From: a virus
Lineage: Duplodnaviria > Heunggongvirae > Uroviricota > Caudoviricetes
Length of the DNA stretch: 64,000 bases
Virus record (IMG/VR): IMGVR_UViG_3300035501_000524
Direction: 5' to 3' (one strand)
In this document: piece by piece, positions 17,089-17,529 of the stretch
Position numbering within the stretch: position 1 is the stretch's first letter
Layout: each line of letters starts with the position of its first letter
The notes under the pieces: generated by a model
Seen by the model: only the letters and a program-made list of their open reading frames with translations
Told to the model about the DNA's origin: nothing
Databases searched by the model: none
Made by a program: the position numbers and the translations under genes

Positions 17089-17529
17089 TTATTTTTCTTT
17101 TAATTCATTTCTTAATTTCATAAGCATCAGACCAAGTTTATTCTGCCCATGGTCTTGGCATCTTCCGCATTTACAGGATCCCCAATAGTTATCATGCCAC
17201 CAGTTGCCTTCTTTTAAATATTCATCTCCAGTAGAAATAAGTTTTTGAGCTAATTCTGGATTTGAGAATTTATATGTAAGAGCACGCCACATAACCTTAT
17301 CTTTTACAGATTCCCAATCTTTTCTTAATTCAATCCCTCTTCCAAGTCGTTTAGCCATTCCAGGAGTAGAAGCTTTAAGAATCTGTTCCCATTCATCTGG
17401 ATTTAACGCTTTTGCGGCTTGAAAATAATGCTCTACTGTTGGAATTTTAATTCCATTTAAGGAAATAAAATTATCCATTTCATAAAAGTTACTTAAAAAG
17501 GCATATTCACCATCAAATTTATCAATCAT
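17089..17529 (-). CDS. NADAR (YbiA/DUF1768) domain protein
   Basis: FLSNFY...VEHYFQAAK motifs typical of NADAR family. Confidence 0.75.
   Translation of the reverse strand: MIDKFDGEYAFLSNFYEMDNFISLNGIKIPTVEHYFQAAKALNPDEWEQILKASTPGMAKRLGRGIELRKDWESVKDKVMWRALTYKFSNPELAQKLISTGDEYLKEGNWWHDNYWGSCKCGRCQDHGQNKLGLMLMKLRNELKEK

What the first reader, a model, noticed from the sequence alone, without database searches (positions are those of the whole stretch)
17089..17529. NADAR-domain protein: candidate anti-defence enzyme reversing ADP-ribosylation (DarT-type)
Clear YbiA/NADAR signature. NADAR enzymes remove ADP-ribose from guanine bases, and DarT toxins ADP-ribosylate DNA as anti-phage defence. 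A phage-borne NADAR with its own strong promoter (17016-17044) is a plausible counter-defence.
Basis: inference. Interest (0 to 1): 0.55.

Follow-up and report, generated by a model that had tools for sequence, protein, structure and literature searches.

The report
Phage NADAR ADP-ribose-removing enzyme

Summary
The ORF is real. It lies at 17089-17529 on the MINUS strand (146 aa) and is a full-length NADAR domain (Pfam E=4e-27). An AlphaFold model (pLDDT 94) matches E. coli YbiA and Phytophthora NADAR. It is under purifying selection (dN/dS 0.12 against an 85%-identical homologue).

All ADP-ribose-contacting and catalytic residues are present (E33, K40, K60, R64, W72, K76, E107, D113, W116). 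The closest characterised relative is AdfN-Bas32 (45% identity), a T5-like phage NADAR shown in 2025 to neutralise DarT1. The counter-defence reading therefore has direct precedent but is not new.

The promoter claim is wrong. TTGATT-N17-TATAAT at 17045-17017 is on the minus strand, downstream of the gene and after its terminator. It is one of 34 copies of a phage-wide promoter and drives the next gene. NADAR appears to be the last gene of a unit that starts at the promoter in front of an RNA ligase.

The context is an RNA-repair and NAD-related gene island with no DarT, so an RNA or small-molecule ADP-ribose substrate remains possible.

One minor new detail is a covarying H112/C119-x-C121-x-x-C124 motif, probably a zinc site, that marks this subclade.

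The parts
17089..17529 (-). NADAR-domain CDS, 146 aa (ATG at 17529-17527, stop at 17091-17089).
17410..17433 (-). Codons for E33 (17433-17431) to K40 (17412-17410). This is the conserved E-x6-K pair, equivalent to PnNADAR E43/K50, E. coli C7 NADAR E88/K95 and AdfN-T4 E36/K43.
   Evidence: Alignment to 8bau and YbiA. Invariant in 120 of 120 homologues. Mutational evidence is in PMC11543638 and PMC11825919.
17191..17211 (-). Codons for E107 (17211-17209) to D113 (17193-17191). E107 is the Glu equivalent to PnNADAR E125 and SCO5665 E167, and it defines the Glu-type (NADAR/YbiA) versions. D113 is equivalent to Pn D130.
   Evidence: Literature.
17158..17196 (-). H112 ... C119-x-C121-x-x-C124. A subclade-specific putative four-ligand (zinc) site in a 5-residue loop insertion next to the active site.
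   Evidence: Conserved in 117-120 of 120 close homologues. Absent from YbiA, AdfN-Bas32, T4 gp30.3 and PnNADAR. Covaries across 50%-identity cluster representatives, including ligand swaps HCCC / HCCH / CCCH. Metal binding is inferred, not shown.
17538..17543 (-). Ribosome-binding site AAGGAG, 8 nt upstream of the ATG.
   Evidence: Sequence. Conserved in L001.
17556..17578 (-). Conserved 10-bp hairpin (AGCCCUUUGC-CAA-GCAAAGGGCU) between the upstream small membrane ORF and NADAR, with a weak U-tail (UUUAAC). Possibly a leaky terminator or RNA-stability element. It leaves no room for a promoter before the RBS.
   Evidence: MFE -17.4 kcal/mol, z = -3.3. Kept in L001 through one compensatory (G-C to A-U) and one wobble change.
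17047..17077 (-). Intrinsic terminator (13-bp stem followed by a U-run) that ends the transcription unit containing NADAR.
   Evidence: z = -5.6. Compensatory change in L001.
17017..17045 (-). It belongs to the NEXT unit (gene 16986..16702 and onward), not to NADAR.
21500..21528 (-). Nearest upstream copy of the same promoter family on the minus strand. It is the inferred promoter of the unit: RNA ligase (21461..20106), small ORFs, GIY-YIG endonuclease, YqeY (18635..18162), small ORFs, then NADAR.
   Evidence: Co-transcription is inferred from the absence of any other strong promoter or U-tract terminator in between.

Best explanation
The gene encodes a minimal, single-domain, catalytically intact NADAR-superfamily N-glycosidase, that is, an ADP-ribosylglycohydrolase. 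It is carried by a large, low-GC (33%), tRNA-rich phage. Relatives of this phage come from gut metagenomes.

The most likely mechanism follows the characterised NADARs. The enzyme binds the ADP-ribose moiety through K40, K60, R64, W72, K76, D113 and W116. It positions the distal ribose with E33 and E107. It then hydrolyses the N-glycosidic bond between ribose C1'' and the exocyclic nitrogen of guanine. Because it is a Glu-type enzyme, it may also act on cytosine.

During infection this would erase ADP-ribose marks that a host ADP-ribosyltransferase places on phage nucleic acid. The host enzyme could be DarT1-type or another guanine-directed ART. The protein would thus act as an orphan-antitoxin counter-defence of the AdfN type.

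It has no promoter of its own. It is predicted to be the last cistron of a roughly 4.4-kb early-type unit that begins at the promoter in front of an RNA ligase gene and ends at the terminator at 17077-17047.

Shown here: family membership, fold, residue conservation, purifying selection and the layout of the signals. Inferred: activity, substrate (DNA versus RNA), biological role and co-transcription.
For: - Family and fold.
- All nine ADPr-contact residues of PnNADAR map onto identical or conservative residues and are invariant in 120 homologues.
- The closest characterised protein is AdfN-Bas32 (bas33_0070 of phage HildyBeyeler; 45% identity, 119 bits). YbiA scores 87 bits and T4 gp30.3 gives no alignment.
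- AdfN-Bas32 neutralises DarT1 toxicity and restores plaquing of three phages on DarTG1 hosts, and it is guanine-specific (PMC11825919).
- Every NADAR tested from all four families removes G-ADPr from DNA and RNA in vitro. Glu-type enzymes also remove C-ADPr (PMC11125620; PMC11833690; PMC12945103).
- The gene sits in a block of accessory or early-type genes behind host-like sigma-70 promoters.
- dN/dS is 0.12.
Against: - No DarT or other ART was seen in the window or among the recurrent neighbours of 80 prokaryotic relatives (only 25 of 78 families were displayed).
- The host is unknown, so exposure to DarT1 is unverified.
- In vitro activity does not predict in vivo protection. YbiA and T4 gp30.3 are active on G-ADPr yet fail to rescue E. 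coli from DarT1.
- The protein passes the NCBIfam model for the riboflavin-intermediate N-glycosidase domain.
- The conserved neighbours are RNA-repair and NAD+-salvage genes, which fits an RNA or small-molecule substrate at least as well as DNA.
Confidence: 0.55

Rival explanations
1. The enzyme is the RNA-directed arm of the phage's RNA-repair island. It removes base-linked ADP-ribose from tRNA, rRNA or mRNA modified by host RNA-targeting ARTs. Alternatively, it clears ADP-ribose-derived by-products of RNA end-healing. In either case it would work alongside the RNA ligase, kinase, phosphoesterases, Thg1-like enzyme and cREC domain protein.
For: - The gene is predicted to be co-transcribed with a PHA02142-type RNA ligase.
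- Its neighbours are a Thg1-like enzyme, an RlaP-like nucleotidyltransferase, an HD protein, an RNase T-like exonuclease, cREC_REC, an AAA_33 kinase and several metallophosphoesterases.
- The same set recurs, in shuffled order, around NADARs only 55-58% identical in other large phage contigs. In one of them an RNA ligase lies immediately downstream.
- NADARs de-ADP-ribosylate guanosine in RNA (PMC11833690).
- An association of NADAR with RNA repair was noted earlier (PMC9503650).
- The phage carries 21-24 tRNA genes.
Against: - No KptA/Tpt1 (the source of ADPr>p) was found in the window.
- Accessory genes cluster in phage genomes for reasons other than shared pathway.
- The related contigs may share the arrangement by descent.
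- NADARs are inactive on phosphate-end and 2'-OH RNA ADP-ribosylation.
- No natural guanine-directed RNA ART defence has been linked to such phages.
Confidence: 0.2
2. The enzyme processes low-molecular-weight NAD+/ADP-ribose derivatives. It would hydrolyse N-glycosidic ADPr adducts or signalling molecules made by host NADase, TIR or SIR2-type defences, or it would feed ADP-ribose-derived products back into phage NAD+ salvage.
For: - In related phage contigs the NADAR gene overlaps or adjoins an NAD synthase gene. NAMPT, nicotinamidase (isochorismatase) and a phosphoribosyltransferase lie nearby (isochorismatase also).
- Among the immediate neighbours of 80 prokaryotic relatives, the most frequent families are YAcAr-type SLOG (5) and NAD synthase (4).
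- Phage Phass-1 has NAMPT about 7 kb away.
- The window encodes an NAD+-dependent DNA ligase.
- This role was proposed on comparative-genomic grounds in PMC9503650.
Against: - No small-molecule ADPr substrate has been demonstrated for any NADAR other than riboflavin intermediates.
- This window itself has no NAD-salvage gene next to NADAR.
- The closest tested homologue acts on DNA-linked ADPr in vivo.
Confidence: 0.13
3. The enzyme is a housekeeping YbiA-like N-glycosidase that destroys reactive riboflavin-biosynthesis intermediates. It would have been picked up from a host and would have no role in host-phage conflict.
For: - TIGR02464 scores above its cutoff.
- It is the Glu-type version, 39-42% identical to E. 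coli YbiA.
- JGI names relatives 'ribA/ribD-fused uncharacterized protein'.
Against: - No riboflavin genes were found in the window or in related contigs.
- The gene is conserved under purifying selection across diverged lytic-type large phages.
- It is closer to AdfN-Bas32 than to YbiA.
- YbiA itself also hydrolyses G-ADPr.
Confidence: 0.05
4. The protein is a non-catalytic ADP-ribose-binding inhibitor of a host NADase effector. The precedent is the phage NADAR-type protein reported to inhibit Retron-Eco1.
For: PMC11825919 states that another phage NADAR acts without needing enzymatic activity, citing Carabias et al. 2024. The ADPr-binding residues are intact here.
Against: The catalytic Glu, Lys and Glu are strictly invariant in the clade, which argues for catalysis. 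The cited paper could not be read here. Similarity to that protein was not tested.
Confidence: 0.04

Closest known systems
AdfN-Bas32 (bas33_0070 of Escherichia phage HildyBeyeler/Bas33; T5-like Markadamsvirinae), an experimentally validated orphan phage NADAR that neutralises DarT1
   Same: - Standalone protein of about 147 aa consisting of the NADAR core only, with no N-terminal extension.
- Encoded by a lytic-type phage with no adjacent toxin.
- 45% identity over the full length.
- Same catalytic set, including Glu at the PnNADAR-E125 position.
   Different: - AdfN-Bas32 has W-G-D, a single Cys and a loop 5 residues shorter. The window protein has W-H-D and C-x-C-x-x-C.
- The phage lineage and (unknown) host differ.
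- The neighbours differ: nucleotide metabolism and RNase H in Bas33 against RNA repair here.
E. coli YbiA (PDB 2b3w), an N-glycosidase of riboflavin intermediates that is also active on G-ADPr and C-ADPr in vitro
   Same: Same fold (TM 0.79), 39-42% identity, Glu-type active site, passes TIGR02464.
   Different: - YbiA has a roughly 15-residue N-terminal extension.
- YbiA lacks the His/Cys motif.
- YbiA sits in a LexA-controlled dinG-ybiB operon.
- YbiA does not protect against DarT1 in vivo.
Phytophthora nicotianae NADAR (PDB 8bau) and the stand-alone 'NADAR family' (SCO5665, sigma70-linked E. coli NADAR)
   Same: All ADPr-contact residues are shared. Structural match TM 0.80.
   Different: PnNADAR has additional N-terminal and internal helices forming a nucleic-acid tunnel. 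The window protein is the bare core.
DarG1 (DarT1-associated NADAR antitoxin; BC4488 family)
   Same: Same superfamily and the same chemistry expected (guanine-N2 de-ADP-ribosylation).
   Different: DarG1 has Asp instead of Glu at the key position, a basic beta1-beta2-alpha1 N-terminal extension, and is encoded next to DarT1. None of these applies here.
T4 gp30.3 / AdfN-T4 (Pfam Phage_30_3)
   Same: An orphan phage NADAR used against DarTG1. It shares the E-x6-K pair.
   Different: It has His in place of Glu107. BLASTP finds no similarity, and the Pfam Phage_30_3 score is 15 bits against a cutoff of 36. It needs a T-even co-factor for full activity.

Membership tests
NADAR superfamily (Pfam PF08719 / DUF1768) | Full-length match to the family profile above the curated threshold | tested here: met
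   95.9 bits against a gathering score of 35.1, covering profile positions 8-163 of 163.
NADAR superfamily (Pfam PF08719 / DUF1768) | Alpha-helical core fold flanked by small beta-hairpins, as in YbiA and PnNADAR | tested here: met
   AF2 pLDDT 94, pTM 0.87. Foldseek finds 2b3w and 8bau at TM 0.79-0.80 and no other significant hit.
NADAR superfamily (Pfam PF08719 / DUF1768) | Conserved Glu and Lys (PnNADAR E43/K50) plus an acidic or His residue at the PnNADAR E125 position, and the ADPr-phosphate ligands | tested here: met
   E33, K40, E107, K60, R64, W72, K76, D113 and W116 are aligned and invariant in the clade.
NADAR superfamily (Pfam PF08719 / DUF1768) | ADP-ribosyl N-glycohydrolase activity | not testable with these tools
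   Requires a biochemical assay.
AdfN (orphan phage NADAR counter-defence against DarTG1) | NADAR gene in a phage genome without a cognate toxin | tested here: met
   The window is phage-like: tail lysozyme, 21 tRNAs, a phage-wide promoter family and syntenic 83-190 kb viral-type contigs. No ART or DarT was found among the ORFs scanned.
AdfN (orphan phage NADAR counter-defence against DarTG1) | Sequence relationship to a validated AdfN | tested here: met
   45% identity and E=5e-40 to AdfN-Bas32. No detectable similarity to AdfN-T4. AdfN-Bas60 was not retrieved.
AdfN (orphan phage NADAR counter-defence against DarTG1) | Neutralises DarT1 toxicity or restores plaquing on DarTG1 hosts | not testable with these tools
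   Requires a genetic assay. The host and its DarT content are unknown.
YbiA family (TIGR02464; riboflavin-intermediate N-glycosidase) | Glu at the PnNADAR-E125 position (de Souza and Aravind criterion, as quoted in PMC11543638) and a score above the NCBIfam cutoff | tested here: met
   E107 is present. TIGR02464 scores 84.1 against 73.7.
YbiA family (TIGR02464; riboflavin-intermediate N-glycosidase) | Link to riboflavin metabolism (fusion or neighbourhood with ribA/ribD) or to the LexA dinG-ybiB operon | tested here: not met
   No such genes in the window or in 8 related phage contigs.
DarG1 / BC4488 NADAR antitoxin | Asp at the key catalytic position | tested here: not met
   Glu107 instead.
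DarG1 / BC4488 NADAR antitoxin | Basic N-terminal beta-beta-alpha extension | tested here: not met
   The protein starts 6 residues before the core. It is 146 aa against about 230 aa for DarG1.
DarG1 / BC4488 NADAR antitoxin | Adjacent DarT1 gene | tested here: not met
   The neighbours are a small membrane ORF and a 94-aa protein of unknown function. PADLOC gives no DarG or DarT hit.
T4-type phage NADAR (Pfam Phage_30_3 PF08010) | Profile match above threshold and His replacing the catalytic Glu | tested here: not met
   15 bits against a cutoff of 36. Glu107 rather than His. No BLASTP alignment.
DS32_2 NADAR family anti-phage protein (NCBIfam NF053876) | Score above the curated cutoff | tested here: not met
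   60.4 bits against a cutoff of 240.

The most novel reading that the evidence does not exclude
The His/Cys3 (putative zinc) NADAR subclade, to which this gene belongs, might not be primarily an anti-DarT1 DNA enzyme. It could instead be the de-ADP-ribosylation module of a phage RNA-repair/NAD+ island. In that reading it is co-transcribed with an RNA ligase and erases base-linked ADP-ribose from tRNA or other RNA, or from ADPr-derived adducts, left by host RNA-targeting ADP-ribosyltransferases. That would add a 'de-modification' step to the classical heal-and-seal phage tRNA repair.
Probability: 0.15. Interest if true: 0.6.

Novelty: new member of a known kind. Interest (0 to 1): 0.3.

Why it matters
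If active as predicted, this gene extends the AdfN-type orphan-antitoxin strategy from coliphages to a lineage of large, uncultured, low-GC phages whose relatives come from gut metagenomes. That would imply that nucleic-acid ADP-ribosylation is a selective pressure in those hosts too.

Two further points give concrete experimental handles, but they refine a known story rather than open a new one:
- The recurrent linkage to RNA-repair and NAD+-salvage genes.
- The covarying putative metal site, which marks a large NADAR subclade. 313 cluster representatives score at E<=1e-30 and 9,024 at E<=1e-10, and this broader set includes non-motif NADARs.

A practical correction also comes out of this work. 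The conspicuous TTGATT-N17-TATAAT elements are a genome-wide promoter family read on the minus strand, and recognising this helps to define transcription units across the whole window.

Tried and rejected
- Megablast of 12 kb around the gene against 50,697 phage records gave no match, so no close cultured relative exists to borrow annotation from.
- PADLOC gave only a weak PDC-M42C candidate-system hit and no DarG or DarT.
- I looked for ART, DarT, Macro, KptA or Nudix genes among about 60 ORFs of the window and found none.
- I looked for a toxin partner next to 80 prokaryotic relatives. The recurrent neighbours were SLOG, NAD synthase, rhodanese, phosphatases and metallophosphoesterases. No ART appeared among the 25 families displayed, out of 78.
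- I considered a promoter between the upstream hairpin and the RBS. Only about 12 nt are available, and the one consensus match (17555-17528) overlaps the start codon, so I rejected it.
The only plus-strand match (17001-17029, 9 of 12) would make antisense RNA, and there is no plus-strand ORF in 17089-17529.
- A literature search for a zinc site in NADARs was uninformative because 'Nadar' is a common author name. 'Zinc' and 'cysteine' are absent from PMC12945103.
- The Retron-Eco1/U56 paper is not in the library.
- Model coordinates are not exposed, so the geometry of the His/Cys cluster could not be measured.
- The neighbourhood of the RNA ligase in Bacillus phage PBC2 gave no informative annotation.

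Full report

Yes for the gene, no for the promoter assignment.

An ATG-to-stop ORF occupies exactly 17089..17529, but on the minus strand. It encodes 146 aa. An AAGGAG ribosome-binding site lies 8 nt upstream of the start codon.

The protein matches the NADAR family by every sequence test:
- Pfam NADAR (PF08719) over the whole profile: E=4e-27, 95.9 bits against a gathering score of 35.1.
- PHROG 1017, annotated as function unknown: 1e-42.
- NCBIfam TIGR02464: 84.1 bits against a cutoff of 73.7.
- In the PDB, only E. coli YbiA (2b3w, 3.6e-20) and Phytophthora nicotianae NADAR (8bau, 1e-11).

An AlphaFold2 model built on 120 homologues is confident (pLDDT 94, pTM 0.87). Foldseek against the PDB returns only those same two structures, at TM 0.79-0.80.

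Against an 85%-identical homologue from another metagenome, dN/dS is 0.12. The ORF is therefore a real gene under selection.

**2.

I used the phmmer alignment to 8bau. The deposited chain numbering is offset by +2 from the numbering in the paper. The ADP-ribose contacts described for PnNADAR are E43, K50, K75, R79, W89, R93, E125, D130 and W133 (PMC11543638). They map to E33, K40, K60, R64, W72, K76, E107, D113 and W116.

All except R64 are invariant in 120 homologues, and R64 is present in 117 of 120.

The residue at the E125 position sorts NADARs into types: Glu in the NADAR and YbiA families, Asp in DarG1, and His in T4-type phage NADARs. This protein is Glu-type. By the results in PMC12945103, Glu-type enzymes are the ones that remove ADP-ribose from cytosine as well as guanine.

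**3. Closest characterised relative**

tblastn against phage genomes finds 473 records, all below 60% identity. Among them are T5-like phages, including Escherichia phage HildyBeyeler, which is BASEL Bas33 (locus tag bas33_0070).

Johannesman et al. (PMC11825919) state that Bas32 and Bas33 encode identical NADARs, which they name AdfN-Bas32. That protein neutralises DarT1 in E. coli and restores plaquing of RB69, T5 and Bas25 on DarTG1 hosts, but it has no effect against DarTG2.

Pairwise BLASTP comparisons with the window protein:

| Reference protein | Identity | Score / E-value |
|---|---|---|
| AdfN-Bas32 | 45% | 119 bits, 5e-40 |
| E. coli YbiA | 39% | 87 bits |
| T4 gp30.3 (AdfN-T4) | none | no alignment |

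For the same reason it is not new.

**4. Expression signals**

It lies downstream of the NADAR stop codon (17089) and directly after a 13-bp terminator hairpin at 17077-17047, whose U-tract overlaps the -35 hexamer. It faces the next gene, 16986..16702.

The exact pattern occurs 34 times in the window, 33 of them on the minus strand, against 0.08 expected by chance. The copies share an extended consensus, and a terminator hairpin directly precedes several of them, including those at 29763, 27206, 25698, 22857 and 17045. It is a genuine, genome-wide promoter family, but this copy does not serve NADAR.

In the syntenic contig L001 both the terminator and the promoter are conserved, and the terminator stem keeps pairing through a compensatory change.

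Upstream of NADAR there is a second conserved hairpin at 17578-17556. It is stable (-17.4 kcal/mol, z = -3.3) and is maintained in L001 through a G-C to A-U change. Its tail is only UUUAAC, and it ends about 12 nt before the RBS, which leaves no room for a promoter.

The nearest upstream copy of the promoter family is at 21528-21500, in front of the RNA ligase gene. I therefore infer a single transcription unit, in this order:
- RNA ligase
- small ORFs
- GIY-YIG endonuclease
- YqeY-like protein
- small ORFs
- NADAR
- terminator

**5. Genomic context**

The window is 33% GC and is transcribed almost entirely from the minus strand. It carries 21-24 tRNA genes.

It also encodes an NAD+-dependent DNA ligase, gyrase A and B, RNase H, PhoH, a tail lysozyme and a sigma-70-type factor.

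NADAR sits inside a dense block of RNA-repair-type genes:
- Thg1-like enzyme (26128-26973)
- HD protein
- RlaP-like nucleotidyltransferase
- four metallophosphoesterases
- RNase T-like exonuclease
- cREC_REC 'cyclic-phosphate processing' domain protein (21536-21973)
- PHA02142-type RNA ligase (20106-21461)
- AAA_33 kinase (14754-15281)

No Macro, KptA, Nudix, ART or DarT gene was found among the roughly 60 ORFs scanned.

NADARs only 55-59% identical to this one, on other 50-190 kb phage-like contigs, sit in related but rearranged neighbourhoods:
- Next to Thg1 and a kinase.
- Between a metallophosphoesterase and RNase T plus an RNA ligase.
- Immediately upstream of an RNA ligase, with SIR2 and cREC nearby.
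- Overlapping an NAD synthase gene, within an NAMPT / nicotinamidase / phosphoribosyltransferase cluster.

Among the immediate neighbours of 80 prokaryotic relatives, the most frequent families are YAcAr-type SLOG (5) and NAD synthase (4).

This matches earlier comparative-genomic descriptions, which linked NADAR to RNA repair, NAD+ salvage and SLOG or Macro domains (PMC9503650). It keeps an RNA or small-molecule substrate in play.

**6. A clade-specific detail**

In this protein the loop after the W-x-D-x-x-W-G active-site segment reads W-H-D-N-Y-W-G-S-C-K-C-G-R-C. H112, C119, C121 and C124 are conserved in 117-120 of 120 close homologues.

YbiA, PnNADAR, T4 gp30.3 and AdfN-Bas32 lack the motif. 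In the AdfN-Bas32 group the equivalent segment is W-G-D, the loop is five residues shorter, and it holds a single Cys.

I examined 150 cluster representatives at 50% identity. The regular expression used to extract this segment matched 121 of them. Counts among those 121:
- His at the first position with C-x-C-x-x-C: 76.
- His at the first position with C-x-C-x-x-H: 4.
- His at the first position with three loop cysteines in another spacing: 9.
- Gly, Asn or other residues at the first position: 28, of which 25 have zero to two loop cysteines and no C-x-C-x-x-(C/H) motif; the other 3 are two W-C-D variants and one W-N-D sequence with C-x-C-x-x-H.

Variants such as W-C-D ... C-x-C-x-x-H swap the ligand type at the first and fourth positions. 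That pattern is what a four-ligand zinc site produces. Metal binding is an inference only. The sequences are related to one another, so these counts are not independent events, and I could not inspect the model coordinates. I found no mention of this site in the NADAR papers I read.

**7. Verdict**

What is there is a bona fide, catalytically complete, minimal NADAR enzyme in a large uncultured phage.

The best-supported function is hydrolysis of base-linked ADP-ribose (guanine N2, possibly cytosine) on phage nucleic acid, as a counter-defence of the AdfN type. My confidence in that role is about 0.55, and about 0.9 that it is an active NADAR glycohydrolase.

DarT1 specifically is only one candidate source of the modification. 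The RNA-repair and NAD+ context supports rival substrates:
- RNA, about 0.2.
- Small ADPr derivatives, about 0.13.
- A housekeeping riboflavin role or a non-catalytic inhibitor role is unlikely.

Phage NADAR counter-defence was published in 2024-2025 (PMC11125620, PMC11825919). This gene is therefore a new member of a known kind, with modest interest.

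Noticed in passing
window, 34 sites, e.g. 2402-2430, 15733-15761, 17017-17045, 21500-21528, 29735-29763, 63656-63684: A genome-wide promoter family, TTGATT-N17-TATAAT, with extended consensus TTGATTTTT(A/T-rich)TATAATATATTTATAAGATAAAGAAAGGA. 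There are 34 exact copies (33 on the minus strand) against 0.08 expected. Several copies, including those at 17045, 22857, 25698, 27206 and 29763, are fused to a preceding terminator hairpin whose U-tract overlaps the -35.
   Followed up: partly
window 5931-6212 (-), between ORFs 6165-7745 and 5541-5933: gyrB is interrupted at the conserved DADVDG|SHI motif by about 282 nt. The flanking exons join in frame (...GAT GGT | TCA CAT ATT...), with U before the 5' junction and G before the 3' junction. A weak but full-length Rfam group I intron match covers it (RF00028, 16.6 bits, E=0.07, model positions 1-253 of 253). In the syntenic contig L001 gyrB is called as one 640-aa gene.
   Followed up: partly
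window 14199-26973 (-): An unusually complete RNA-repair-type gene set: Thg1-like 3'-5' polymerase, HD protein, RlaP-like nucleotidyltransferase, four metallophosphoesterases, RNase T-like exonuclease, cREC_REC domain protein, PHA02142-type RNA ligase and AAA_33 kinase. It recurs in shuffled order in other large phage contigs.
   Followed up: partly
window 31873-47125 (-): A cluster of 21 tRNA genes by ARAGORN, plus 3 further weak Rfam tRNA hits at 31952-32074, 37304-37373 and 38904-38966. Copies of the promoter family are interspersed among them.
   Followed up: no
window 18940-19647 (-): A GIY-YIG/NUMOD homing-endonuclease gene lies between the small ORFs upstream of the YqeY gene. The syntenic contig L001 has no gene of that size at this position, so this is probably a recent mobile insertion within the RNA ligase-NADAR unit.
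   Followed up: no
window 27244-29688 (-), 12652-14148 (-), 29823-31337 (-): Three notable phage-encoded proteins: a major-vault-protein-shoulder/Vault-repeat protein (814 aa), an SPFH/flotillin-like protein (498 aa) and a DUF2828/DUF7788 protein (504 aa). The first two are conserved next to the RNA-repair block in related contigs.
   Followed up: no
window 17158-17196 (-); relatives P0121-P0270: A covarying His/Cys motif (W-H-D...C-x-C-x-x-C/H, with ligand-swap variants W-C-D...C-x-C-x-x-H) marks a large NADAR subclade in phages, bacteria and archaea. It is absent from all NADARs characterised so far and is probably a structural zinc site.
   Followed up: partly
In contig L001 an extra 73-aa gene is inserted between the promoter and this gene.
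   Followed up: no
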